Virus record (IMG/VR): IMGVR_UViG_3300013102_000004
Coordinates: 70,630 to 134,629 of that record
Origin: a virus
Taxonomy: Duplodnaviria > Heunggongvirae > Uroviricota > Caudoviricetes
DNA length: 64,000 bases
Direction: 5' to 3' (one strand)
The notes under the pieces were generated by a model. The model made no database searches. It saw nothing but the letters and a program-made list of their open reading frames with translations, and was not told the origin of the DNA. The stretch's first letter is position 1; each line of letters opens with the position of its first letter. Positions 3,070 through 49,504 of the stretch are shown one piece after another. A program made the position numbers and the translations under genes.

Positions 3070-6000
3070 CGAGTACCAAGCCTACGTTCCTTATCAATCT
3101 GATCCTGCTTTACCTGCTGCAAAATTGTCTTGCTCCATTCCTTAAGTCTATTATCCAAATCATCGACACCGATAATTGTGGCATCCTTAATTGTAACATT
3201 AATTTCGACATTAGACTCACTTGAGCGTGGCGCTGTAACAGCATTCTGCAAAGCAATGTTATCTGAGTGCAAAGCTGTCAAAATAGGATCGAAACCGACG
3301 ATACCCATATTGCTCATACCGCTTAGCATAGGGATAAGGTTCTCAAACGCTGTTGTCTGACGTGGACTTAGAACACGCTCTGGCTTTAGAGTGTTCTTCA
3401 TCATTGGTCCGATACCGTTTGCAATACCACCATCGTCATACCAGTTAGGGTAGTGAGAGTTCCAGAACGCCCATGCACCTACCGGGTCTTGACTGAATCC
3501 GTTGTTAGCTGCTGGACTTGTCGGAGAACCAATGTAACGAGCACCGTAAACTGCCTGCTGATATGGATCAGAAGTCTTTTGTCCACCAACAGTTGCCCAA
3601 GTTGTACTTAGGAACTGGAACAAACCGTAAGCGTCTGATGCTGGCCAAGCCGAAGCTGTTGGGTCCCAACTTGATTCGTGTGCAATCAACTGGTACAGAG
3701 CATCCCATTGACGACCTGTATCCCAACCTCTAGGCTTAACCGCTGCCTTTACAGCATCAACAACTGGACCATTGTAAGTACCCTTTTCAATGTCCTGACC
3801 TGCTCCACCATAGGAATAAACTGGTGCGAACTTAGCCATTGCATTGTCGCGGTACTTGTCAATACCCTTTGTTGTCCAGTTAGAATACTGAGGGAACTTT
3901 GCCTTGATATCATCACTAGCTACTGGTGCTACTGATCCACCACCTGAAGCTGCACCCTCACCCGGCTGAATTGGTCCATTAGAACGAGTGTGAACGTGAT
4001 CTTGGTGACCACTGTAGTCAGAAGCGAAGTAACTTCCATCGTCTCTTTGTCTACCGTGCCAACCAATCTTCTGACCAGTATTTGGGTTCATCCAAATGAT
4101 CTGCTCTAGAGTTGGTGTTCTCGGAGCAATGCCTAATAGATATTCAGCGAAGCCCTGCATTGCTGGAACTGAACCGGACCAGTCAATACCTCTGTTAAGA
4201 CGACCTGGGTTCGGAGCGTAACCTGGTTCGTTACGGTCTCCCTCCTGGTGACCTGGATATGTAGATGCCTGAACGCCCTTGGCGCTAGCAAGACTGTATA
4301 CCCAACCTGGGAATCCTGCTCCACCATAACTAATATTGGCACCGTTACGTAGACCATAACCACCACCGGCTCCACCAACATCAATATCTGGACCTCCACC
4401 CATACCGCTACCGCCGTATGTCTTGGCCTGCATCATGGCTTGTCCTGCTGCTAATGCTGCACGACTAACTAGAGCACCCATCATTGCGGCCTGGATTCCT
4501 CCACCGATTCCGGCTAGACCGTTACCAATTGGTCCACCAGCGTGGCGAATAATGACAGCTCTACCATCATTAACGGCCTTCATTGTTTCAGTACCGTAAG
4601 TCTCGTGTGCCTTACGACGAATCATGAACTCGCCCTGTTGAGCTAGAACATTTGTCTCGTCAGAACGCATCGGAGCATTCTTAGGAATACCTGCACGGTT
4701 GTTGTACTTGTCGTAACCTGATCCAACTGGACCACCGGCGTGACGTGTGAACGAACCATTACCGCGCTGACCGGCGTTACTATTCTGTGGAGTAGAAACA
4801 CCGCCACCACCGCCACCTCCGTCGCCTGGCATTTCACCTGTACGCAAGAAGTTATTGAATTCTGCACCGCTCATGTTGAACGCACCTCTTGAGATACCTT
4901 CTGCTACACGGTTACCGAATTCGTTCCACATAACGTCATTTGACATTTCAGCAGTAGCCTGACGTGTTCTGTTGATCAAGCTATCTTCAATTGTCTTGGC
5001 CCAGAAGTCACCCTTAGTCATCAACTGAACACCGTGATCGTTGTAAGCTCCCTGTACACGTCCCATGTGTGCTGCCAATTCGGCTTCATTCAAAGGAATC
5101 TGAGTACGCAAAGCTTCTAGCTCACGGTTAAGTGCTCTCTGATTAGCTGCGAAACTGATTTCGAAAGCAATGTTTTCGTCTTCCTGCTTACGCTGCAAGT
5201 ACTTCTGCTCTGCTGCTTGTTTAGCTGAAAGTTCCTCGTTGCGCATAGTAATACGCTCTTCCATTGCCTCCTGTTCCATCTGCTTCTGCTCTTCAAGACT
5301 CTTAAGACGAGCATCCTTCTCTTCATTGATAAGTTCAATAGCCTTGCTACGAGCCTTATCCTCGTCTTCTTTCTTGTAACCCTCTTCTGCGGCAACAGAT
5401 TCCGTGTTGTAGTCAGTTGATGTTTGGGCAGCATTCAGAGACAAACGAGCAACCTCATCAAGGTCACCGCCTGCCATAGCGATATTTGTGTCAATACCGA
5501 TCTGCATCAAAGACTGCAAGTACTTCAAACGACGAGATTCACGGTCAGCATTACGCTTACGCTGTGTCTCTAGGTCATCTTCAACCTTCTGCTGATCCTC
5601 AATTGCCTTAACACGATCATCGTAAGCCTTTGTCTCAGCTTCGATCTTGTTAGTCCAGTCCTTATCGAATTGCTTCTTCTCTGCCTCGTCGGCCTTGGAC
5701 TGAGCCTTCTTTTCTAGATCGTAACGTTCTGATAGAGCATCGGATGCTGCCTGTTGCATATCCTTGAAAGCTCTCTTCTGAGCATCGAATTGGATTTGAG
5801 CCTGAGCATCCATCTCGTCAAGAACATCGTTCCAAGCATTTGTCATAACCTGCTTACGCTGGTCTACAACATCTTGAACTGTCTTGTCAATCTGAGTACC
5901 ATCGTCCATTGTAATCTTGACGATTGCTTCCCAGTTACCGACCTTTCCACCGGCCAAAGTCTCTGTTAGCTCTTCTAGTTCACCGTTGGCGTCAACTGCC

Positions 6001-27020: not shown

Positions 27021-28715
27021 TTATCTCTCCTTCTTTGTATTTTTAGAAGCCTGGATTCCTGCCTTGCTGCGCATGTAGTAAAGACCCTTTATGTACGGGT
27101 CAAGCATGGCTAGCTTGTGAATCTTGCTGATGTAGGCCGGAGACTCGTTAGCGTCAAAGAAAAGATTTAGCGATTGTCCCTGGTCAATAAATTTTTGTCG
27201 TTCAGATGCTTGTTCGATTATGGCCTCTTGATTAATCTCATAAGCTGTCTTGAATACTTCCTTCTCATGGTCAGACAACCAATCGACATTTTGAACCGAT
27301 CCTGAGTCATCAATTATCTCGTCAATTGTCTTCTGGTCGTACTTTCCACGTTCCTTCATAATGTCAATCAGGGTAGGGTTGATTCGTGCCATTTCTCCTG
27401 CTGCTGAGGACTGATTAAATACGTTTGCAACGATCGGCTCAATACCCTGACTGACTCCACCAACAAGTAACGCGGTGGACATTGTTGGAGCGACTGCCAT
27501 TAGGTGACTGTTACGTCTTCCCTTTGGTGCCCACTCTGCTGAACCAGCTTTTTCACCCATCCAAGACGAAGCCTCTTCTGCGTAACCTCTGATTCCAGAA
27601 AAGATAAACTTATTCAGATTTTGAGCCTCTTGCGAATCGAAAGGAATGCTCTTGGACTGCAATAGTGTGTGCCAACCCATGACGCCCAATCCAAGCGCTC
27701 TGCTCTTCTCTGTAAAACGAACTACCTTTTCCATACCCTTGACCTTGCTGCCACGATCTATCAAATCCTGAGCAATACAGTCAAGGAAAACTGTTGCGAT
27801 GAATACTAAGTCAGTACCCTTCCATTCGTCATACTTTGCTAAGTTAAGTGAACTAAGTACACAGCTAAAACTATGATCCGCGTCAGAGTGCAATGCAATC
27901 TCCGAACACAGATTAGAAGCCTTGACGCTCAATCCCTTTTCAGCATATCCGGCTGGATTCTGACGGTTCACCTTGTCAATGAACCAGAGATAACCCTTAC
28001 CTGTCACAGCGCGAGTCTTGAGAATCTTTTGGTAACGACGAATCGTATCCTTATCACCGGACTTTAGCTTGTCAATGAAATTATCTGTGATGTTCCAACC
28101 GACATTCAGCCCGTCTGGGTTGTTATAGAGATAATCAATGACTTCATCGAAATCATCGTGATCAGCCTCTAGATAGCCTGCCCAAGCGCCACGACGCGTA
28201 GAACCCTGGCTGGTGTCGTCCATATCTTGAACGAAGCCTTTGAATACCGGCAAAACTCCGTTAGCTTTTCCATTGTCGCCGTAAGCTGATCCTCGTGGGC
28301 GAATGTCGCCAAGATATCCACTAGTACCAAATCCTTGCTTTGTCAATACTGCTGATTCTAGACGTGAATCGTAGAATCCATAAATTGAATCTTCAATGTA
28401 GTTACCAGTACAGCTTACAGCCATACCGCGCTCTGTTCCTAGATTCGCAAGAACCGGAGTACTTGGACTTAGCCAACCGTTCCAGATTGCTTCAAAGAAC
28501 CTTTCTTCCCAGTCGATTTCGTCACCGTACAAGCGTACTGCTATTTCACCAGCCGCTTCGGCAATTCTTACATATCTATCTGCAAGGCTCTGCCCCGACT
28601 CAGCATACTTTAACTTAAACATCTGGTAGCCGGGTGTGATGTACCAATCAGGTACTTCTCCCTTTTCCTGAAGTTCTTTGCGTTCTGCCGAGATTTGCTC
28701 ATAAATGCTTGTCAT
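27021..28715 (-). CDS. nrdA: Class Ia ribonucleotide reductase alpha subunit (no ATP cone, no C-terminal CxxC)
   Basis: PSTP, VSC, SNLCSEI (N/C/E active site), SCVLSSLNL, APTMST, YYMRS. Confidence 0.95.
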   Translation of the reverse strand: MTSIYEQISAERKELQEKGEVPDWYITPGYQMFKLKYAESGQSLADRYVRIAEAAGEIAVRLYGDEIDWEERFFEAIWNGWLSPSTPVLANLGTERGMAVSCTGNYIEDSIYGFYDSRLESAVLTKQGFGTSGYLGDIRPRGSAYGDNGKANGVLPVFKGFVQDMDDTSQGSTRRGAWAGYLEADHDDFDEVIDYLYNNPDGLNVGWNITDNFIDKLKSGDKDTIRRYQKILKTRAVTGKGYLWFIDKVNRQNPAGYAEKGLSVKASNLCSEIALHSDADHSFSCVLSSLNLAKYDEWKGTDLVFIATVFLDCIAQDLIDRGSKVKGMEKVVRFTEKSRALGLGVMGWHTLLQSKSIPFDSQEAQNLNKFIFSGIRGYAEEASSWMGEKAGSAEWAPKGRRNSHLMAVAPTMSTALLVGGVSQGIEPIVANVFNQSSAAGEMARINPTLIDIMKERGKYDQKTIDEIIDDSGSVQNVDWLSDHEKEVFKTAYEINQEAIIEQASERQKFIDQGQSLNLFFDANESPAYISKIHKLAMLDPYIKGLYYMRSKAGIQASKNTKKER

Positions 28716-30839: not shown

Positions 30840-31178
30840 TCATGTTCTCATCGTGCCGTCAGGCTTCAGTCTAAACGTCAAACCGTATACCTTCTTTGCT
30901 CCCGAACCAAATCCTGTATCGAACAACCAACCGTTCTCGAAAAGTAGATCAAGATGTTGCTGGACTTCTGGTGGACTGACCTTTATGATTCTTGATATGC
31001 TGTACGCACTGATTGCAGACAGTTGCATCTGAACCTTTCGCTGGTATGTGCAGGTAGATTCAATCACACTTGCAACAACCTTGGTAGTCATGCTTAGATC
31101 GGACCTGAACACCAAGTCACGCCACTTGTGGCGGCTGTAGACAGTTTCTAGATCATCTGGTTTACTTAACTCTGGCAT
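30840..31178 (-). CDS. Winged-helix DNA-binding protein
   Basis: LSMTTKVVA...SAYSISRIIKVSPPEVQQHLDLLFENGWL. Confidence 0.65.
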   Translation of the reverse strand: MPELSKPDDLETVYSRHKWRDLVFRSDLSMTTKVVASVIESTCTYQRKVQMQLSAISAYSISRIIKVSPPEVQQHLDLLFENGWLFDTGFGSGAKKVYGLTFRLKPDGTMRT

Positions 31179-34313: not shown

Positions 34314-35326
34314 TAGACGTCAAAGCTGCTATACTTGATCTGTTGGCTAAGGTCAGCGGAAAGGCAAGGTACATCAATATGCAAAAAGTTAAAGACCTAA
34401 CTCCGGTCACGAAGTACGGAGTAGGCGGTACCGATTTAGGTATTCCTTTCACATTGGAAAATGGTTCGACAGGATACCTGTTCGGAGATACCTTCAGTTC
34501 GTTAATGCCGGGTGGTGCTAATTGGCGTAGTCCTGTAGCATTGCGCAGTCATGAACCTATTGAAAATGGTATCGAGTTTGATTCAGCTTATAAGTTAGCT
34601 GGCGAGGGACTAGCACCCGAAATTATCGCAAATCAGCACAACACAAGCGGTAATGGCGAGTTTACTATTATCCCTAACGACGGAATCAGCTTCCCTGAGA
34701 CCGGGCGTCAGATCATAAGTTATATGTCTGTGAGAAACTGGGACAACGGTACTTGGCGAACTAACAATACTGGTTTTGCTTACTCGGATAACGGCAACGA
34801 TTTCGTTAAGTTAAACTGGCAATGGAACAACAACTGGGCAGGCACAGATATCTTGCAGATGGTGTCGATGCAACGAGAAGGCAACTGGGTATACTTGCTC
34901 AGTACTTCAAACGGGCGACATTTGACAGATGGTTTGTACTTGCGTAGGGTTCCCTGGGACAAGATGTTCGATCCATTCGCTTACGAGCATTGGACTTGGA
35001 ACGGTACTTGGCAGTGGACTAAGAATTATAATTGGTTCTTTCATCCTATCCTTGCTGGTAGATTCGGAGAGCCTAGCTTGAGAAAGCTAAAGGATGGACG
35101 TTGGGTAATTAGCGTAATCGACGCAGCGAATGATAGACTCTCGTTGTACGATGCCCCAACAGTCACATCAGTATGGAACCACCGAACACTGATTTCGAAC
35201 ACATCTTCGGAATCCATATACGGAGGATTCGTACACCCCAATTCGACAAGCCAGTCATTACATGTAATACTGAGCAAGTGGAATGCAACCAAGTACGGTT
35301 GCGAACAGTGGAAAACTAGTTTGTAA
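34310..35326 (+). CDS. DUF4185-family protein (putative GH183 endo-D-arabinanase)
   Basis: GTDLGIP..YLFGDTF..WRSP..IPNDGI..YMSV..AYSD.NG..GEPSL..YGGFVHP; TTG start overlaps thyX stop (alternative ATG 34379). Confidence 0.8.
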   Translation: MIDVKAAILDLLAKVSGKARYINMQKVKDLTPVTKYGVGGTDLGIPFTLENGSTGYLFGDTFSSLMPGGANWRSPVALRSHEPIENGIEFDSAYKLAGEGLAPEIIANQHNTSGNGEFTIIPNDGISFPETGRQIISYMSVRNWDNGTWRTNNTGFAYSDNGNDFVKLNWQWNNNWAGTDILQMVSMQREGNWVYLLSTSNGRHLTDGLYLRRVPWDKMFDPFAYEHWTWNGTWQWTKNYNWFFHPILAGRFGEPSLRKLKDGRWVISVIDAANDRLSLYDAPTVTSVWNHRTLISNTSSESIYGGFVHPNSTSQSLHVILSKWNATKYGCEQWKTSL

Positions 35327-43651: not shown

Positions 43652-44022
43652 CCGCAGATAGAGATAAGTTAACCGACGAACTGGATATTGAGTATGCAGA
43701 TTATGCAATGGTTCTGGATAGAGGCGGTCACAGATTCAGTTTGACCACAGCAGAATTAGATGCTGTTCGCAAATGGATTCAGGAACATGTCAGTATAGAA
43801 ATGGTTCCGGTTGTCAAGATCAGCAAGCAGCCTAAGTCTGATACTATTGACGAGATTATGCGCAGTGGCAGAACGATGATGCCTCTGATTGATCCTGGAT
43901 TGAAGGTAACCAATTTGGATCATCCCGCGCAAAAAGAGACAGAGATTATTGTTAAGGCTAATAGAGGTGGCCCGACAATTGATCTGAGAGACAATGTTAG
44001 CAATATCTTTCAGGGACGTTAG
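43648..44022 (+). CDS. Hypothetical protein
   Basis: 124 aa, last gene of the plus-strand block. Confidence 0.65.
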   Translation: MTADRDKLTDELDIEYADYAMVLDRGGHRFSLTTAELDAVRKWIQEHVSIEMVPVVKISKQPKSDTIDEIMRSGRTMMPLIDPGLKVTNLDHPAQKETEIIVKANRGGPTIDLRDNVSNIFQGR

Positions 44023-44209
44023 AGAAGAGAATATTCAAAATTTCTCTTGATTACTGGTTTTCAAAATTGAACATTTTTCATAGTGTATATGATGTGTGCA
44101 TCGGGCACGAAAAATTTTCAATACAGTGCGCACATAGATTTGTCAACCGATTGTGAGATTCAACACAAAGAAAATCATGTGATATGAATCTCATAAAAAA
44201 ACTGAGAAA

Positions 44210-44262
44210 AAGCTTGACCTAAGGGAACTCATATGATCTAAAAATTCCCTTAGGTCAAGCTT
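44210..44262. repeat. Perfect 18-bp inverted repeat between convergent gene blocks
   Basis: AAGCTTGACCTAAGGGAA-17nt-TTCCCTTAGGTCAAGCTT. Confidence 0.95.
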
Positions 44263-44279
44263 AGGTTAGGCTTACATCA
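44261..44279. promoter_or_regulatory. IdeR/DtxR-like operator
   Basis: TTAGGTTAGGCTTACATCA, 17/19 to TWAGGTWAGSCTWACCTWA. Confidence 0.55.
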
Positions 44280-44342
44280 GTCCTACGATGATGCAGAGAA
44301 ACAGAACGAACAGAATGATCTTGCCTAGATTCAAAATTACGA

Positions 44343-44909
44343 TCATTCGGAATCACCGTGAGTTTCCATTGCTGCATCAATTTCGGATACGTCTCCGCCC
44401 GAATCAATTGCAACCGTTCGGTAGGCATCAAGGGTGCGAAGTAACCAAACGATCACTTCCTTTTGATCACTCTTGCTGTCCCACGAATAAACAAACTTCT
44501 GTTCTTCAATATCGAATCGAACAGAATGGATAGCACCATTGGCAGTAACTACCCGTAGCACTCGTGTGCTCTCAGGTGTCAACCCTAGGGCCTCTACGTA
44601 CTCCTCTGTACGTGGGCGACCTGTTCTACCCTGCATGACTGCATTCAACTGAGAGCGCAATACAGGTACCTCTACGGTACGGCGCGCATGATTCACCCTA
44701 CCGAGCCTATCCAACGGACGATGAAACACAGTTGCCACAGTGTCATCAGGTACAGCTACTTCGGGTGATCCTGCATCTAGCCATGCTTGCATGACTGACA
44801 TAGCAGTCTTACCGCGCCACAAGGGAGTGTCATTATTCTCGTTGTGAAAACGTCGTGCGTTGTGGATATCTTCGGGTGAAAAAGTTCGGGTTACCAGTGA
44901 TGCAGTCAT
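44343..44909 (-). CDS. Hypothetical early protein
   Basis: Start set at MTASLVTR with RBS GGAAAG. Confidence 0.7.
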   Translation of the reverse strand: MTASLVTRTFSPEDIHNARRFHNENNDTPLWRGKTAMSVMQAWLDAGSPEVAVPDDTVATVFHRPLDRLGRVNHARRTVEVPVLRSQLNAVMQGRTGRPRTEEYVEALGLTPESTRVLRVVTANGAIHSVRFDIEEQKFVYSWDSKSDQKEVIVWLLRTLDAYRTVAIDSGGDVSEIDAAMETHGDSE

Positions 44910-44997
44910 TTTTTCTTTCCTCTCAGTTGTTTTCATTTGGAGTAAATGAAAATCAGAAAGCATTCACCTCTATAGATAAATGCTTTCCTACTTTCAC

Positions 44998-45309
44998 TTA
45001 TTCGTTGTATTCAAGAATTGCCCAACCCTCTAATATGGTTGGTTCGAATTCTTTTATTCCCTCGTCATCGTTCTCCCACGAATTCGCTACCACTACGTAA
45101 ACACCCGGATGTTCTAGTAATGTGCGCTCTAGTCCACCACCGATGAATTCCGAATTGTGGTATTCGCCAAACACAACCCATTTATCGGAGATGACTTCGG
45201 ACTCAAAGAATTCGGGTGCGTGCAAATCGTTCCTATCAACGATCGAACCATCTTCCAGAATTTCGATCACATGGTCGAATTCCATACGGTCATTTAGATT
45301 CATTTTCAA
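44998..45309 (-). CDS. Hypothetical early protein (acidic)
   Basis: 103 aa, coupled to neighbour. Confidence 0.7.
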   Translation of the reverse strand: MKMNLNDRMEFDHVIEILEDGSIVDRNDLHAPEFFESEVISDKWVVFGEYHNSEFIGGGLERTLLEHPGVYVVVANSWENDDEGIKEFEPTILEGWAILEYNE

Positions 45310-45545
45310 TTTCCGTTCTTGTTTGTTTCCAGTGACGAGACAGAACCTAATGCCATGACCCTTGCAATATCAGCCATGACATAGTTCGGAACTTTTTCTA
45401 CCGCAATAGAGCGATTGTCAGAAGTGACTTCGATTAGCAATCGGTCCGATTCAACCCGAACAGTCCACGAGTACTTACCCGATATTCCAAGGGTAATTTC
45501 GATATTGTTCGGTCCGATCAAAGTATCCCTGTACGCGTGCATCAC
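45306..45545 (-). CDS. Hypothetical early protein
   Basis: 79 aa, ATGA overlaps. Confidence 0.65.
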   Translation of the reverse strand: MMHAYRDTLIGPNNIEITLGISGKYSWTVRVESDRLLIEVTSDNRSIAVEKVPNYVMADIARVMALGSVSSLETNKNGN

Positions 45546-45787
45546 TTAACCTCAATTTCGAATACGGTCACATTCTCGCAACCTGATACGTAGTAATGAA
45601 ATTCGATTTTGCCGTTCCCGAATTCGTCCCGATTGTCGCGGAAGATTCCATAACCCGGAGTCCGGTCTACCTTTTTCTTGAATTCACGTATCCAAGAATT
45701 CAGGGTTGATTTTGCGATTTCCTTCAGTTCGTAGGGTTGCGGTTTGTGCTGTCCGATTGCATGACTTTTGATGACTGTTACTCTCAT
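45542..45787 (-). CDS. Hypothetical early protein
   Basis: RBS GAGAGG before MRVTVIK. Confidence 0.65.
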   Translation of the reverse strand: MRVTVIKSHAIGQHKPQPYELKEIAKSTLNSWIREFKKKVDRTPGYGIFRDNRDEFGNGKIEFHYYVSGCENVTVFEIEVK

Positions 45788-45860
45788 GATTTTTCCTCTC
45801 ATAGACGAATGAACAAACAAGAACGAATAGGGAAATTACGCCCTATTCGAACTTACTTAG

Positions 45861-46259
45861 TCAGTCTTCGAAAATTTCGATTCCGTTGTTATCCTCCGCA
45901 CGGTATCCGTTTGACTCTAGTTCTGATTTGATTTCTTCGATCAAATCATCTAGTTCGTAGTCAACGTTCTCAGGGTCAAGGTAGAAATCTTTTACTTTTT
46001 CTTCCCAGGAATCATGCGGATGGGGAGCGTACTTATCCGCAAACCGAGCAAGAAAAAGATCATTTGATTCCTGACCCAACGAGCCATCCTGAGATTCGAT
46101 GGGTTCCAAATCACACTGAATCGCTCGGTAATGTCCGGGGTCGACTTCGAACAGGACACGCGCTGCATCATAAGAGCACTCTCCGAAGACAATCGGATCA
46201 TGCAATTCGTTGATGAAATCATCGGTGCGGTCATCGCGTCGAACATCGTTGTAAGTCAT
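45861..46259 (-). CDS. Hypothetical early protein (very acidic)
   Basis: 132 aa D/E-rich, RBS AAGGA. Confidence 0.7.
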   Translation of the reverse strand: MTYNDVRRDDRTDDFINELHDPIVFGECSYDAARVLFEVDPGHYRAIQCDLEPIESQDGSLGQESNDLFLARFADKYAPHPHDSWEEKVKDFYLDPENVDYELDDLIEEIKSELESNGYRAEDNNGIEIFED

Positions 46260-46348
46260 TTTTCTATTTCCTTCTGTAGAGTTCGGGTGATCTGATTATC
46301 GAAATAATCATTTGAACGGTTGCGAATTACTCGCAACCGAACAGACAA

Positions 46349-46588
46349 CTACTCGTGTTCGATCCAGAATGTAACCACTAGCGGTTTGTCATCGAGTTGA
46401 TCGAACTTACAGATCAACAAAGAATTCATAGAAAGAACAATTTCTTCCACTCGGTAGTCATCAGCAATAGAGCGAAATTCTCTTACTGCTGATTCGATTG
46501 TCTCGTGTTCTGCCTGATGTACTTGGACAGATTGAACAAAAGTTGTTTCGGTCGGTCCGGTCGTTTCAGTCATTTTGATGACAAACAT
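46349..46588 (-). CDS. Hypothetical early protein
   Basis: Start at MFVIKM just after the upstream stop. Confidence 0.6.
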   Translation of the reverse strand: MFVIKMTETTGPTETTFVQSVQVHQAEHETIESAVREFRSIADDYRVEEIVLSMNSLLICKFDQLDDKPLVVTFWIEHE

Positions 46589-46590
46589 TT

Positions 46591-46875
46591 TCAGTATCCT
46601 CTGATCGGGTGAATTTCGGACAATTGATAGAGCGTTACGCACACTGTCCGACTGTTGAGTGCTGATGACCATGTAACCCGAGATTCGTTCCTGTTGAAAT
46701 CGGAGACTTGGACGCCAGTCGGATAGTTCGGAGCAATCCACATATCCTGATGAATTGCTTTTTCGAATTCTTCGATTGCTTGCTGATCCGATTCGTAAAA
46801 ATCAATTCGAATCGTTTCCGAATTGAACGGTTTGCCGTTCTCATCGTGCCATTGTTCAAATCGTGTCAGATACAT
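46591..46875 (-). CDS. Hypothetical early protein
   Basis: RBS GAGAGG before MYLTRF. Confidence 0.65.
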   Translation of the reverse strand: MYLTRFEQWHDENGKPFNSETIRIDFYESDQQAIEEFEKAIHQDMWIAPNYPTGVQVSDFNRNESRVTWSSALNSRTVCVTLYQLSEIHPIRGY

Positions 46876-46886
46876 CAGTGATCCTC

Positions 46887-47141
46887 TCACTCAAAGAATA
46901 TTTCAAAAGAAATATTCTTATCCTCGTTGTGTCCTGTGGTCCGGTAGGCAGACTGTTCGATATGACCGATGTTTCCGTGAACGATTTTCCAAGAACCGCC
47001 CCAAACCATTACGGTTTCGCCGATTTTGTTCTGTACCCAATCGCCTACGGGTACCGAGCACTCGTGTTCGAATTCTTCCCGAAATTCCCGTTCTCTCTCA
47101 GTGCCAGAATCAAAAGTGATTCTAATTTCTGCCTGATACAT
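46887..47141 (-). CDS. Hypothetical early protein
   Basis: RBS GGAG-6-ATG (MYQAEI). Confidence 0.6.
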   Translation of the reverse strand: MYQAEIRITFDSGTEREREFREEFEHECSVPVGDWVQNKIGETVMVWGGSWKIVHGNIGHIEQSAYRTTGHNEDKNISFEIFFE

Positions 47142-47143
47142 AA

Positions 47144-47398
47144 CTAGCTCCAATTCCATTGAATCTGGACTGATTCGTTTTTGTTGCTGATCGTAATGGT
47201 TTGGCAAGTAGGCGACTCCGACCGACTGATCAGAACCTCACTTGAGCCATACCGTGTGAAATCGCGGATCGCGTTGTGAATCGCGGCAGAGAAATAATTC
47301 TCCGATTTGGTTCGTTCGTGTTCGGAGAATTCGGTACGAACAACTAGAGGGTTGCCGTTGTTGAATTCGTTTCGATGGATTGATTCGATGGTGAACAT
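47144..47398 (-). CDS. Hypothetical early protein
   Basis: 84 aa, tightly packed. Confidence 0.65.
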   Translation of the reverse strand: MFTIESIHRNEFNNGNPLVVRTEFSEHERTKSENYFSAAIHNAIRDFTRYGSSEVLISRSESPTCQTITISNKNESVQIQWNWS

Positions 47399-47400
47399 TT

Positions 47401-47640
47401 TCAGAAGCTCCCACGTGAGATCGAAATTGCTCGCTGGAAATCAGCCAGATTGTTTCCGATTGTCAGATCATCCAAAATCGGGTTAGCGGGCCGATTTGCT
47501 TTCTTTGTGAAATTCGGAGCAACTGTGTCGGTTGCTTTTACGAGTGTGATTCGGTCGGTTGTCTTGTTGAAAGCAATTGCCAAATTGCAAGCAACCCGAA
47601 CGGGTGAACTTAGGTTGTACTGATTTGCTGTAACGATCAT
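47401..47640 (-). CDS. Hypothetical early protein (first gene of block)
   Basis: 79 aa, RBS GAAGGA. Confidence 0.65.
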   Translation of the reverse strand: MIVTANQYNLSSPVRVACNLAIAFNKTTDRITLVKATDTVAPNFTKKANRPANPILDDLTIGNNLADFQRAISISRGSF

Positions 47641-47674
47641 TTTCGTTTCCTTCTGTTCGATGGGTTAGTGCTCG

Positions 47675-47736
47675 TCCGACTAGAGCGATTTGAACGCTTG
47701 TATCTCACCCGATACTGATGTGAGCTTGCTAGTCGG
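47675..47736 (-). ncRNA. D-armless tRNA-like structure
   Basis: CCGACUAG/CUAGUCGG stem, CUCAC/GUGAG stem, AGCG-UUCAAAU-CGCU T-arm. Confidence 0.5.
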
Positions 47737-47956
47737 TTGTCGTGTTCCCTGTGGAATTATCTAGGGCTGTTACTTCCCTAGGGGCTGTGTGGCATCCACC
47801 ACTCGCAATACTGCTACCCGTCAAAATTTCTCTGTCTGCCTCCACTTGCGCGAGACTTCGAAATTTTCTTTTGCGCCGTTCTTCTGGCACAACAAAAATT
47901 TACCACACCCGATTTTCGACCCTAAGGGATATATAGGTATACCCGTTTGTAAACAT

Positions 47957-48160
47957 GCAGGTCAGAGCGTTTCTCGTCGGCCATTCCGTACCGATTTAAC
48001 TTAAATCTGATTCCATAACAGAATGGTAACAGTGTATAACCGCTGGTCAAAAGGTTGCATAGTCTAACGATAGTCTCAATATGTGAGATTTTGCTATGTT
48101 ACTCGCAAGTAATATGACCGTTAGAATCAATTCTAGTTTTGCATCGTTGCTGGTCAGAGG
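47957..48160 (+). repeat. Three GC(A/T)GGTCA(G/A)AG-like motifs (fourth copy at 56891)
   Basis: 47957 GCAGGTCAGAGC, 48042 GCTGGTCAAAAG, 48149 GCTGGTCAGAGG. Confidence 0.7.
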
Positions 48161-48198
48161 CTTAGTTGAATTGCTAACTATCGGTAGAATGAATTCTA
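48122..48198. repeat. Pair of palindromes TAGAAT-NN-ATTCTA
   Basis: 48122-48135 and 48185-48198, 63 bp apart. Confidence 0.8.
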
Positions 48199-48392
48199 GT
48201 TCTGCCTGTTTTGGCGGGTACAGAGCAATTCTGTTATCTAGTTGTGACCTACTGGCTTATTTGAGTTCTGTCATCTGCCTATACCCAAACATCAAATAGT
48301 TTCGTCACTTGACGTAATAGATCATTTCATTAGCTAACGAAACAATTACATACAGTAATTACTTAATGTCATTAGCAGCACAAAGAGTATAG

Positions 48393-48577
48393 ATAGGCTT
48401 GCCTTACTTGAACGAGAATTCATATTAGGTTAGGTATAGCTTACTTGAATCTGATTTCAGGTTAGGATGACCTTACTTAGGTTTGGCTAATTTGAGGCGG
48501 GATTCAACTAAGGATAGGCTACCCTAACAAAGCATACCCTCACTTAGTCTACCCTTACTTAGGCAAGGCTTACCTTT
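48393..48577. promoter_or_regulatory. Tandem array of about 7 IdeR/DtxR-like 19-bp boxes
   Basis: Starts 48393 (14/19), 48430 (15), 48462 (14), 48477 (15), 48509 (17), 48544 (14), 48559 (17); hand-scored against TWAGGTWAGSCTWACCTWA. Confidence 0.6.
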
Positions 48578-48614
48578 CTCTATAGAGAATGATATAACTT
48601 ATTTGGTTTTGTAC

Positions 48615-48799
48615 CCATTAAGCGTCATTAAGTATTAGCCCTGGTGGGAGCTTAGACATTAAGTTAAGACTTTTGTAGGCCCCGGCCGGGTTTTCAAAAA
48701 ACATTAAGTTTTGACGTTTTATGGTGAATTTCGGACATTTTAAGTTAAATATGTATGAAAAAGGCTTGTTTTCGAGTAAAAAACAGACATTAAGTTAAG
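48615..48799 (+). repeat. CATTAAG(TTAAG) direct repeats around a CCCGGCCGGG palindrome
   Basis: GACATTAAGTTAAG at 48655 and 48786; ACATTAAGTT at 48701; variants near 48616, 48626, 48734; palindrome 48680-48689. Confidence 0.8.
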
Positions 48800-49237
48800 C
48801 AACCTCAAAACTATTACATCTGTACTAGAAATCACGGCTATGAATGTTCAGTATTTCATATGACTACACCGATATGGCGTACACATGTTCATTTTAACGA
48901 ACATTCATACATTAAGTATAGTATTTGATGAACATCAGTACCCATCTCTGTCTCTTTACGGTTCTCTATTTGCTTTGCATACACGAATACCCTACAAAGA
49001 AATACACAGACATTCTACATACACTTCTATATGCTTTATCTCTATACTTCTCTATAGTGTAATCACTGTATACACACCGCGCAAAAATGCTACGCAGTCT
49101 TTGTTCGTCTTGTATTCAGTCGCCTCTGGATCATCTCATACATCATTGTATCTACCTCATCGAACACTTTGTGATCAAACATGCAGTCATATGCAATCAG
49201 CATTGACTCTAGTTCCTGCACGCTGAATCTATCCACT

Positions 49238-49504
49238 CTATTCACCCTCTCTTATCAGTTCTGACAGCCTATCATTATGCCAATGCCACTTGGCCTTCTC
49301 GATACGTCTTGAAGCCTTAGAAATGCTCTCCTGCCATGTTTTATCCCAGTACTCCGCAAGACCGACTTCAATCTCATCAGCATCACCATCAATGTAGTAA
49401 TCAGTAAAGACCTGACTGTACCACATTGGTTGACTTAGCTTGCCTACTTCTCTACGACGTGCCTTACATATCTCTATTCTAATTTGCATCGTGCCAATAC
49501 ACAC
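49238..49504 (-). CDS. Hypothetical protein
   Basis: 88 aa on the coding strand. Confidence 0.55.
   Translation of the reverse strand: MCIGTMQIRIEICKARRREVGKLSQPMWYSQVFTDYYIDGDADEIEVGLAEYWDKTWQESISKASRRIEKAKWHWHNDRLSELIREGE

What the first reader, a model, noticed from the sequence alone, without database searches (positions are those of the whole stretch)
48393..48577. Array of iron-repressor (IdeR/DtxR)-like operators in the probable first-injected DNA
Seen: about seven 19-bp imperfect palindromes within 185 bp, the best being TAAGGATAGGCTACCCTAA (48509) and TTAGGCAAGGCTTACCTTT (48559), each 17/19 to TWAGGTWAGSCTWACCTWA. Some overlap at 15-bp offsets, and another 17/19 copy marks the other end of the early block (44261). 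Known: that consensus is the Fe2+-dependent IdeR/DtxR box controlling siderophore and iron uptake in Corynebacteriales, whose own aerobic RNR is typically the Mn-capable class Ib, whereas this phage encodes a di-iron class Ia RNR. Inference: (a) a DNA sponge titrating IdeR to derepress iron uptake as genomes replicate, or (b) an iron sensor gating early transcription. Alternative: packaging or repeat-boundary signals that merely resemble the box, as with T7's CCTAAAG arrays.
Basis: partly seen in the sequence, partly recalled or inferred. Interest (0 to 1): 0.87.

Follow-up and report, generated by a model that had tools for sequence, protein, structure and literature searches.

The report
Host iron-repressor sites in phage end
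A large lytic Rhodococcus-type phage carries, in the non-coding leader of its terminal repeat, a dense cluster of DNA sites that look just like the binding sites of its host's iron-sensing repressor IdeR, so the phage probably loads or soaks up that host regulator, which published work on these phages does not describe.

Summary
Window 48388-48577 holds seven distinct IdeR/DtxR-type 19-bp boxes, and an eighth lies at 44261.

- **Statistics.** A matrix built from 24 Corynebacterium glutamicum DtxR sites gives 7 hits of at least 14 bits in the 136-kb genome, against 0.5 expected. All 7 lie in these two spots.
- **Host and location.** The phage is a relative of Rhodococcus phages NiceHouse and Trina. 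By synteny, window ~44092-48811 is a ~4.7-kb direct terminal repeat that the assembly collapsed. The array sits about 235 bp inside the predicted left end, upstream of the promoter-like sites of the small-gene operon. The eighth box lies after that operon's last gene.
- **Relatives.** NiceHouse, Trina, Dorin and Francesca carry such boxes only in their terminal repeats, the first one 283-296 bp from the left end. The three Weaselvirus relatives have none. Unrelated metagenomic phage contigs carry longer arrays with a 20-bp period.
- **Binder.** No box-bearing phage encodes a DtxR-type domain above threshold.

I put host IdeR binding at about 0.65. Whether the selected function is titration of IdeR, iron-dependent activation or anti-silencing of the early operon, or an end-related role is untested.

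This scan already reported the same phenomenon in phage Trina. I found no paper describing it.

The parts
48388..48411 (.). iron box 1, scoring in two registers 5 bp apart (48388 and 48393)
   Evidence: PWM 13.0 and 15.4 bits; 4 and 5 mismatches to the consensus
48425..48448 (.). iron box 2, two registers (48425 and 48430)
   Evidence: PWM 12.4 and 14.7 bits
48457..48480 (.). iron box 3, two registers (48457 and 48462)
   Evidence: PWM 15.0 and 12.0 bits
48477..48495 (.). iron box 4, 20 bp after box 3
   Evidence: PWM 14.0 bits
48509..48527 (.). iron box 5, 17/19 to the consensus
   Evidence: PWM 20.4 bits
48544..48562 (.). iron box 6, overlapping box 7 by 4 bp
   Evidence: PWM 12.9 bits
48559..48577 (.). 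iron box 7, 17/19 to the consensus
   Evidence: PWM 20.6 bits, the best in the genome
44261..44279 (.). iron box 8, between the stop of the last terminal-repeat gene (44343) and its terminator hairpin
   Evidence: PWM 18.7 bits; 17/19
44210..44262 (-). perfect 18-bp inverted repeat followed by a T run on the minus strand: likely terminator of the terminal-repeat operon. Its upstream arm overlaps box 8 by two bases and holds a weak box-like copy at 44250
   Evidence: sequence read directly
48408..48507 (.). three copies of a second palindrome, TTGAA-N5/6-TTCAA (48408-48422, 48445-48459, 48492-48507), each abutting a box. Together they form the 36-nt composite repeat D1
   Evidence: the same palindrome abuts boxes in NiceHouse and Trina
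48616..48794 (-). five CTTAATG repeats (minus strand) between the predicted physical left end and the array. A sixth lies at 48910, outside the predicted repeat
   Evidence: five or six such repeats occupy the first 250 bp of NiceHouse and Trina
48023..48243 (-). promoter-like sites for the small-gene operon: AACTAGAAT or AACTAGATA units at 48130-48138, 48193-48201 and 48235-48243, plus TTGACC-16-TACCAT at 48050-48023
   Evidence: consensus matches only
44092..48811 (-). predicted direct terminal repeat (~4.7 kb), collapsed to one copy in the assembly. It holds the leader and about ten small minus-strand genes
   Evidence: synteny with NiceHouse genes 1-9 and alignment of both repeat boundaries; not verified by reads

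Best explanation
The boxes are working binding sites for the host's iron-dependent regulator IdeR in its Fe2+ form, with two dimers per 19-bp box. They are packed into the non-coding leader of the phage's direct terminal repeat, and one more lies behind the last gene of that repeat. Each virion DNA carries two copies of the repeat and the DNA replicates to many copies. The eight sites per repeat would therefore soon outnumber the host's own iron boxes and draw IdeR-Fe away from the chromosome. That would derepress siderophore and iron-uptake genes and lower IdeR-activated iron storage, giving more usable iron during infection.

Shown: the sites exist, are far beyond chance, match a matrix of verified DtxR sites as well as real sites do, and recur in relatives only in their terminal repeats. 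They are not accompanied by a phage DtxR-type protein. Inferred: IdeR binding (about 0.65), and titration as the selected effect (about half of that).
For: - PWM and consensus enrichment confined to two spots.
- The pattern is the true iron box of Actinomycetota. All listed matches but one lay in that phylum. Reverse-pattern controls found none in 401 genomes. Flanking genes are DesA-type decarboxylases, siderophore-binding proteins, HtaA, SIP, FecCD, IucA/IucC and FTR1.
- The nearest phages infect Rhodococcus.
- The boxes do not overlap any predicted promoter; the nearest is at least 190 bp away. One box lies downstream of the operon, so classical operator function is unlikely.
- Box number changes fast through tandem 20-bp duplication: Trina has 5+3, NiceHouse 3+2. 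Unrelated phage contigs L175, L177 and L195 have 15, 10 and 9 hits of at least 12 bits. This pattern is expected if number matters.
- One repeat copy holds 8 sites of at least 12 bits. Of the 24 C. glutamicum regulon sites used, 17 reach that score in leave-one-out scoring.
- A 5-Mb Nocardioides genome has only 3 sites with at most 2 mismatches, the same number as this phage.
- No DtxR N-terminal domain above cut-off in this phage, NiceHouse, Trina or Dorin.
Against: - No binding or expression data exist.
- Dorin and Francesca keep only one strong box, which is a weak sponge.
- The first box sits 283-296 bp from the physical left end in four isolates (about 235 bp by alignment here). A pure decoy has no need for a fixed position.
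- Boxes are often fused to a second conserved palindrome, which suggests a defined nucleoprotein complex with another factor.
- The three Weaselvirus relatives have similar promoter-like units but no boxes, so the element is dispensable.
Confidence: 0.35

Rival explanations
1. Same binder (host IdeR-Fe2+), but the selected function acts in cis. The array upstream of the early promoters, and the box behind the operon, load IdeR so as to activate or de-silence the terminal-repeat operon when iron is sufficient. The model is M. tuberculosis bfrB, where four IdeR boxes upstream of the promoter relieve repression by the AT-binding silencer Lsr2. The phage would thus read host iron status and protect its AT-rich leader from Lsr2.
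For: [quoted passage not shown]
- The leader has 36.9% G+C, and its 2-kb bin is the lowest of the window, in a phage whose relatives infect hosts far richer in G+C. That is the kind of DNA Lsr2 binds.
- The array lies upstream of three or four promoter-like units.
- The position relative to the left end is conserved in four isolates.
- The boxes bracket the operon in this phage and in Trina.
- The last gene of the operon (44343-44963) is homologous to Dorin gp7, which is annotated as an Lsr2-like DNA-bridging protein.
Against: - The boxes are 190-350 bp from the predicted promoters, whereas at bfrB they abut the -35 region.
- The promoter calls are consensus matches only, and fewer than in shuffles.
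- Weaselvirus relatives manage without boxes.
- Pfam gives no Lsr2 hit for the 206-aa protein.
Confidence: 0.28
2. The boxes are bound not by IdeR but by a phage-encoded or other host protein. They serve the genome ends: marking the terminal-repeat boundaries for terminase and repeat duplication, protecting the ends, or acting as a replication origin. On this view the likeness to the iron box is convergence or mimicry.
For: - In all five box-bearing phages the boxes occur only inside the terminal repeat.
- They lie at a nearly fixed distance from the left end. In Trina they lie 26 bp from the right boundary, and here about 170 bp from the predicted right boundary.
- They are fused to a second palindrome of unknown binder.
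- In L177 and L195 the arrays are followed by GATC palindromes and a very AT-rich stretch, which looks origin-like.
Against: - A 19-bp match to the iron box that scores as high as real DtxR sites, repeated in more than 30 copies across related and unrelated phages, is hard to obtain by convergence.
- NiceHouse, Dorin and Francesca have no box at the right boundary.
- Weaselvirus phages have the same genome type but no boxes.
- The only DtxR-like phage hit (30840-31178, 19.5 bits against a cut-off of 26) has a variable putative recognition helix. It is also present in Weasels2, which has no boxes. Its homologues in NiceHouse, Trina and Dorin do not hit the family at all.
- The CTTAATG repeats next to the end are better candidates for end signals.
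Confidence: 0.2
3. The boxes are relics without function, for example picked up from host DNA or spread by replication slippage.
For: Their number and spacing vary widely between relatives, and a whole sister genus lacks them.
Against: - They persist at the same place in phages whose portal proteins are only 43-52% identical, while the surrounding DNA is no longer alignable.
- They keep high PWM scores despite turnover.
- The G+C content of the array (40%) is that of the phage, not of host DNA.
Confidence: 0.05

Closest known systems
IdeR/DtxR iron-box operators of Actinobacteria (consensus TTAGGTTAGSCTAACCTAA), including the DtxR operator at the tox promoter of corynephage beta
   Same: The same 19-bp palindrome made of four CCTAA-type pentamers. 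The best phage boxes score 18.7-20.6 bits on a matrix of verified C. glutamicum sites. In both cases a phage-borne site is read by a host iron repressor; for tox the site is listed as DIP0222 in PMC1382209 Table 2.
   Different: The tox operator is a single site overlapping one promoter of a temperate phage's toxin gene. Here there are eight sites in a lytic phage, in a terminal repeat, overlapping no predicted promoter, and one lies downstream of the operon.
Four tandem IdeR boxes upstream of M. tuberculosis bfrB (IdeR relieves Lsr2 repression)
   Same: Several boxes clustered upstream of a promoter in DNA that is AT-rich for its context (PMC10317159).
   Different: At bfrB the boxes abut or overlap the -35 region. 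Here the nearest promoter-like site is at least 190 bp away, and the arrays in relatives are longer (up to 5 boxes at an exact 20-bp period, and 9-15 PWM hits of at least 12 bits (overlapping registers counted) in metagenomic phage contigs).
Iron-box arrays in both terminal-repeat copies of Rhodococcus phage Trina
   Same: The same motif, the same place in the genome (about 290 bp from the left end, and at the right edge of the repeat) and the same second palindrome. I re-derived the Trina sites myself.
   Different: In this phage the spacing is irregular (15-50 bp) instead of the 20-bp and 37-bp periods of Trina. The right-hand cluster is reduced to one strong box next to a terminator hairpin.
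Repeat arrays next to the terminal repeats of T7-type phages, and the repeat-rich injection-stop region of T5 (from my own knowledge, not tested here)
   Same: Short repeated protein-binding-like motifs lie close to the boundaries of a direct terminal repeat that carries the earliest genes.
   Different: Those repeats are phage-specific sequences. These match a known host regulator's operator. No two-step injection is known for these Rhodococcus phages.

Membership tests
IdeR/DtxR iron-box operator | 19-bp palindrome close to TTAGGTTAGSCTAACCTAA, scoring like verified sites | tested here: met
   Eight distinct sites score 12.9-20.6 bits on a matrix of 24 verified C. glutamicum sites, whose own leave-one-out range is 5.2-19.2 bits.
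IdeR/DtxR iron-box operator | Four CCTAA/TTAGG-type pentamers in 5-bp register, so that two dimers fit | tested here: inconclusive
   Pentamer density is the genome maximum. However, only boxes 5, 7 and 8 keep three or four good pentamers. Several others score in two registers 5 bp apart.
IdeR/DtxR iron-box operator | The host encodes IdeR and uses this box at iron genes | tested here: inconclusive
   Shown for Actinomycetota in general. The host is inferred only from relatives.
IdeR/DtxR iron-box operator | Metal-dependent binding by the regulator | not testable with these tools
   Needs EMSA, footprinting or ChIP.
IdeR/DtxR iron-box operator | Site overlaps a promoter (repression) or lies just upstream of the -35 region (activation) | tested here: not met
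   No predicted promoter lies within 48388-48577, and the nearest is at least 190 bp away. Box 8 lies after the last gene. Promoter prediction is weak evidence.
Transcription-factor decoy (sponge) array | Many high-quality sites, free of promoters, on a high-copy replicon, in numbers comparable to the regulon | tested here: met
   Eight sites per repeat copy, against 17 of 24 regulon sites at the same score, and none overlaps a predicted promoter. Copy number during infection is assumed, not measured.
Transcription-factor decoy (sponge) array | Measurable derepression of the regulon when the array is present | not testable with these tools
   Needs RNA-seq or reporter assays.
Terminal-repeat boundary or packaging signal | The same motif at or next to both repeat boundaries in all relatives, bound by terminase | tested here: inconclusive
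   At the left end the boxes are always 235-296 bp inside the repeat. At the right boundary they occur only in Trina and this phage, not in NiceHouse, Dorin or Francesca.
Replication-origin iterons | Direct repeats next to an AT-rich unwinding element and an initiator gene | tested here: not met
   The units are palindromes rather than direct iterons, and Tandem Repeats Finder reports no array here. The neighbouring genes have no recognised initiator family.

The most novel reading that the evidence does not exclude
A lytic phage uses the host's iron sensor as a licensing factor. IdeR-Fe2+, loaded on arrays that bracket the terminal-repeat operon together with an unknown protein on the adjoining TTGAAT-N4-ATTCAA palindrome, would keep the silencer Lsr2 off the first-expressed genes. 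Infection would then proceed only in iron-replete cells, and the same arrays would later drain IdeR from the chromosome.
Probability: 0.2. Interest if true: 0.85.

Novelty: new variant of a known kind. Interest (0 to 1): 0.68.

Why it matters
Host-regulator operators on phage DNA are known mainly as single sites that control morons of temperate phages, such as tox under DtxR and stx1 under Fur. Dense arrays of a global metal regulator's sites in the terminal repeat of virulent phages would be a different strategy: either titrating a host master regulator or sensing host iron status at the first moment of infection.

The idea is directly testable with the isolated phages NiceHouse and Trina on Rhodococcus erythropolis. 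The element recurs in unrelated uncultivated actinophages, so it may be widespread. It could also explain how AT-rich phages of GC-rich actinobacteria cope with Lsr2-type silencing.

Tried and rejected
- **Reads.** They rest on synteny.
- **Host genus.** A sample of 401 Actinomycetes genomes came without names. I therefore could not build a Rhodococcus-specific matrix and used the C. glutamicum regulon instead.
- **IMG/VR relatives.** The portal search found none. A left-end 20-mer found none. The tandem-box pattern found only Trina itself. Exact single boxes occur in only 38 of 2.9 million viral contigs, mostly unrelated to this phage.
- **Phage-encoded DtxR-like reader.** The 112-aa winged-helix candidate (30840-31178) is below the Pfam cut-off. 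Its putative recognition helix is not conserved, it is present in Weasels2, which has no boxes, and its relatives include repeat domains of giant proteins. Rejected as the likely reader.
- **Terminal-repeat proteins.** The proteins tested gave no Pfam family and only PHROGs of unknown function.
- **Homologues for walking to further repeats.** Protein 46591-46890 had only two homologues, on short contigs.
- **RNA and tandem repeats.** No Rfam family matches 43900-49400. No tandem array in the strict sense lies within 48388-48577.
- **End overlap.** The 123-bp end overlap of the record looks like an assembly circularisation, not the biological repeat.

Full report
**What is there.** The finding lies in an 835-bp stretch without long open frames (window 48051-48884, 36.9% G+C), between two blocks of small minus-strand genes. 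Seven lie in 48388-48577 and two in 44250-44279. In the whole 136-kb genome only two further four-mismatch hits exist. Shuffles that keep neighbouring-base frequencies give means of 0, 0.125 and 1.57 hits at up to 2, 3 and 4 mismatches, against 3, 5 and 11 observed.

**Independent test of the motif.**
- I took 24 C. glutamicum DtxR sites with expression evidence from Brune et al. 2006 (PMC1382209, Table 1) and built a symmetric weight matrix.
- Leave-one-out scores of those real sites range from 5.2 to 19.2 bits.
- The phage genome has 12 positions of at least 12 bits (simulations 1.9) and 7 of at least 14 bits (simulations 0.5). Ten of the 12 lie in the array, one at 44261 and one, probably by chance, at 35063.
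- Merging hits in registers 5 bp apart gives eight distinct sites. The best score 20.6 (48559), 20.4 (48509) and 18.7 bits (44261).
- The IdeR pentamers T[AT]AGG and CCT[AT]A reach 10 per 200 bp here, the maximum of the genome (mean 0.48, sd 0.79).

**The pattern is the real iron box.**
All 120 but one were from Actinomycetota.
- In 401 sampled Actinomycetes genomes, 26 have an exact match, at most four each, and the reversed control pattern has none.
- Genes flanking the boxes in 60 of these loci include 19 DesA-type PLP decarboxylases, 7 siderophore-binding proteins, 5 HtaA and 3 siderophore-interacting proteins. FecCD, IucA/IucC, FTR1 and a DtxR gene also occur.
- The IdeR review PMC10317159 gives the consensus TTAGGTTAGSCTAACCTAA, with two dimers per box and each subunit on one CCTAA repeat.

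**Which phage, and where in its genome.**
- The window is bases 70630-134629 of a 136,446-bp IMG/VR record. Its 123-bp end overlap looks like assembly circularisation.
- The portal protein is 81% identical to that of Rhodococcus phage NiceHouse. It is 52% identical to Trina, 45% to Weasels2 and 43% to Dorin and Francesca.
- NiceHouse and Trina are virulent siphophages of cluster CE with direct terminal repeats. The published description does not mention IdeR or iron (PMC13313380).
- NiceHouse genes 1-10 are repeated as genes 282-291, giving a 5,291-bp repeat that starts with 1.6 kb of non-coding leader.
- Our minus-strand genes from 47890 down to 44343 are syntenic with NiceHouse genes 1-9 (up to 95% identity). 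The genes beyond 49238 match NiceHouse genes 280 and 275, which lie just outside the repeat.
- NiceHouse bases 15-37 align with the reverse strand of window 48800-48776. The NiceHouse repeat end at 5291 maps to about window 44092.
- The predicted terminal repeat is therefore about 44092-48811, collapsed to one copy in the assembly.

**Layout, read on the minus strand from the predicted left end.**
1. Five CTTAATG repeats (48794-48616).
2. A TCTCTATAGAGA palindrome (48577-48588).
3. The seven boxes (48577-48388).
4. Three AACTAGAAT or AACTAGATA units and a TTGACC-16-TACCAT site, which look like promoters (48243-48023).
5. About ten small genes.
6. The stop of the last gene at 44343.
7. Box 8 (44279-44261).
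8. A perfect 18-bp hairpin with a T run (44262-44210), probably the operon terminator.

No predicted promoter overlaps a box.

**Relatives.** Whole-record scans at up to three mismatches, and the matrix applied to the left ends (first 5.8-12 kb), gave these results:

| Phage | Boxes |
|---|---|
| NiceHouse | 283, 303, 323 (20-bp period), 384, 547 |
| Trina | 296-376 (five at a 20-bp period); 2742, 2779, 2816 (37-bp period), ending 26 bp before the repeat's right end |
| Dorin | One near-perfect box at 285 (24.2 bits) |
| Francesca | One near-perfect box at 284 (one mismatch) |
| Weasels2, Peregrin, Grayson (Weaselvirus) | None |
| Streptomyces phage Gilson | None |

- In every box-bearing phage the consensus scan of the whole record finds boxes only in the two copies of the terminal repeat.
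- The surrounding DNA is barely alignable between these phages, so the boxes persist through sequence turnover.
- Weasels2 keeps promoter-like units related to ours in its leader, but no boxes.

**Beyond this group.**
- A pattern for two boxes at a 20-bp period finds low-G+C metagenome contigs with 15 (L175), 10 (L177, first box at 287) and 9 (L195) matrix hits of at least 12 bits.
- These contigs encode PHROG phage families. They share no detectable protein with our phage.
- High-G+C, apparently bacterial, contigs in the same scan have mostly two to five such hits (seven on one 14.6-kb stretch).

**Who binds.**
- The Pfam DtxR DNA-binding domain is not found above cut-off in this phage, NiceHouse, Trina or Dorin.
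- The best sub-threshold hit here is a 112-aa winged-helix candidate at 30840-31178 (19.5 bits against a cut-off of 26).
- It has homologues in nine Rhodococcus phages, including Weasels2, Peregrin and Grayson, which lack boxes.
- Its putative recognition helix varies between phages that share the same box.
- Its wider family includes repeat domains in giant proteins.
- The same motif in unrelated phages also points to a host protein that is conserved across Actinobacteria.
- I put binding by host IdeR, or a close DtxR-family paralogue, at about 0.65.

**What it does (inference).**
- *Titration (0.35).* The sites avoid predicted promoters, and one lies after the operon. Their number expands by tandem duplication. 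One repeat copy holds about half as many good sites as the C. glutamicum regulon set used here. With two repeat copies per virion DNA and many replicating genomes, titration of IdeR-Fe would follow almost automatically from binding. I rank this first.
- *Control in cis (0.28).* IdeR-activated genes typically have several boxes. At M. tuberculosis bfrB, four upstream boxes let IdeR displace the silencer Lsr2. The leader is the most AT-rich part of the window. The boxes bracket the operon here and in Trina. The operon's last gene is homologous to a Dorin protein annotated as Lsr2-like. Against this, the boxes are 190 bp or more from the predicted promoters, and the Weaselvirus relatives do without them.
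- *End-related role with another binder (0.2).* The nearly fixed distance from the left end, and a second palindrome (TTGAAT-N4-ATTCAA) fused to many boxes in this phage, NiceHouse and Trina, argue for a defined complex. This keeps an end-related or architectural role with another binder alive.
- *Relic without function (0.05).*

The phage RNR alpha subunit matches the NrdE-prime family (TIGR02510, 610 bits against a cut-off of 602). The beta subunit matches no class-specific model above cut-off. The 'di-iron class Ia' premise is therefore not established.

**Prior knowledge.**
- Full-text searches for IdeR or DtxR iron boxes in lytic phages or terminal repeats returned nothing relevant.
- The nearest published parallels are the single DtxR operator of the corynephage beta tox gene and the tandem boxes of bfrB.
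- This scan has already followed up the same phenomenon in phage Trina (e1-5384328 and e1-5384329).
- The present window adds a third Trinavirus-like genome with irregular spacing. It also adds the comparison across eight isolated phages, the matrix test and the unrelated metagenomic arrays.

Noticed in passing
window 48616-48910: The heptamer CTTAATG (minus strand) occurs six times within 300 bp next to the predicted physical left end; a seventh copy of the motif, on the plus strand, lies at 48362. The window holds 15 copies of the motif in all, both orientations counted. NiceHouse and Trina have five or six copies in their first 250 bp, and Dorin two. These are candidates for terminase or end-recognition signals.
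   Followed up: partly
window 48408-48422, 48445-48459, 48492-48507; NiceHouse 344-549; Trina 449-509 and 2693-2843: A second palindrome, (C)TTGAAT-N4-ATTCAA(G), abuts many iron boxes in three phages but not in Dorin. Its binder is unknown. Its arms resemble the HspR inverted repeat, from my memory, but the spacing differs.
   Followed up: partly
window 44210-44262: A perfect 18-bp inverted repeat with a T run on the minus strand, probably the terminator of the terminal-repeat operon. Its arms contain CCTAAGG and overlap box 8 by two bases. Trina has a comparable hairpin just before its right-hand box array.
   Followed up: partly
window 48130-48243: Three tandem promoter-like units, CAnAACTAGAAT or CAnAACTAGATA, lie on the minus strand, each inside a palindromic TAGAAT-N-ATTCTA element. 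Related GACCTGCA units occur in the Weasels2 leader.
   Followed up: no
window 30840-31178 (minus strand): A 112-aa winged-helix-like protein is the first gene of the long leftward operon. It has 25 homologues among 1.8 billion representatives, including proteins of 2889 and 4551 aa that carry the domain 16 and 9 times.
   Followed up: partly
window 44343-44963 (minus strand): A 206-aa protein encoded in the terminal repeat is homologous to Dorin gp7 (29% identity over 147 aa), which is annotated as an Lsr2-like DNA-bridging protein. Dorin gp7 shows two TRGR/TRCR motifs; ours has WRGK at the matching place. It has no Pfam or NCBIfam hit.
   Followed up: partly
L175:1-420, L177:287-430, L195:1576-1700: Phage contigs from metagenome Ga0079226 carry 9-15 PWM hits of at least 12 bits (overlapping registers counted), in L177 and L195 at an exact 20-bp period. 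The arrays are followed by GATCTAGATC-type palindromes and, in L177 and L195, a very AT-rich stretch. A minor-tail-protein gene lies nearby.
   Followed up: partly
L012, L017, L031, L044 (also L019, L034): IMG/VR contigs of about 45% G+C carry two iron boxes 84-85 bp apart, exact or with one mismatch. This is a recurrent pair in phages not detectably related to this one.
   Followed up: no
G000 1-123 and 136324-136446: The 'direct terminal repeat' of the IMG/VR record is a 123-bp exact overlap, probably from circular assembly. The biological repeat (about 4.7 kb by synteny) is collapsed, so the true genome would be about 141 kb.
   Followed up: partly
window 27021-28715 (minus strand): The RNR alpha subunit is of the NrdE-prime type (TIGR02510, just above cut-off). 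The beta subunit reaches no class-specific cut-off.
   Followed up: partly
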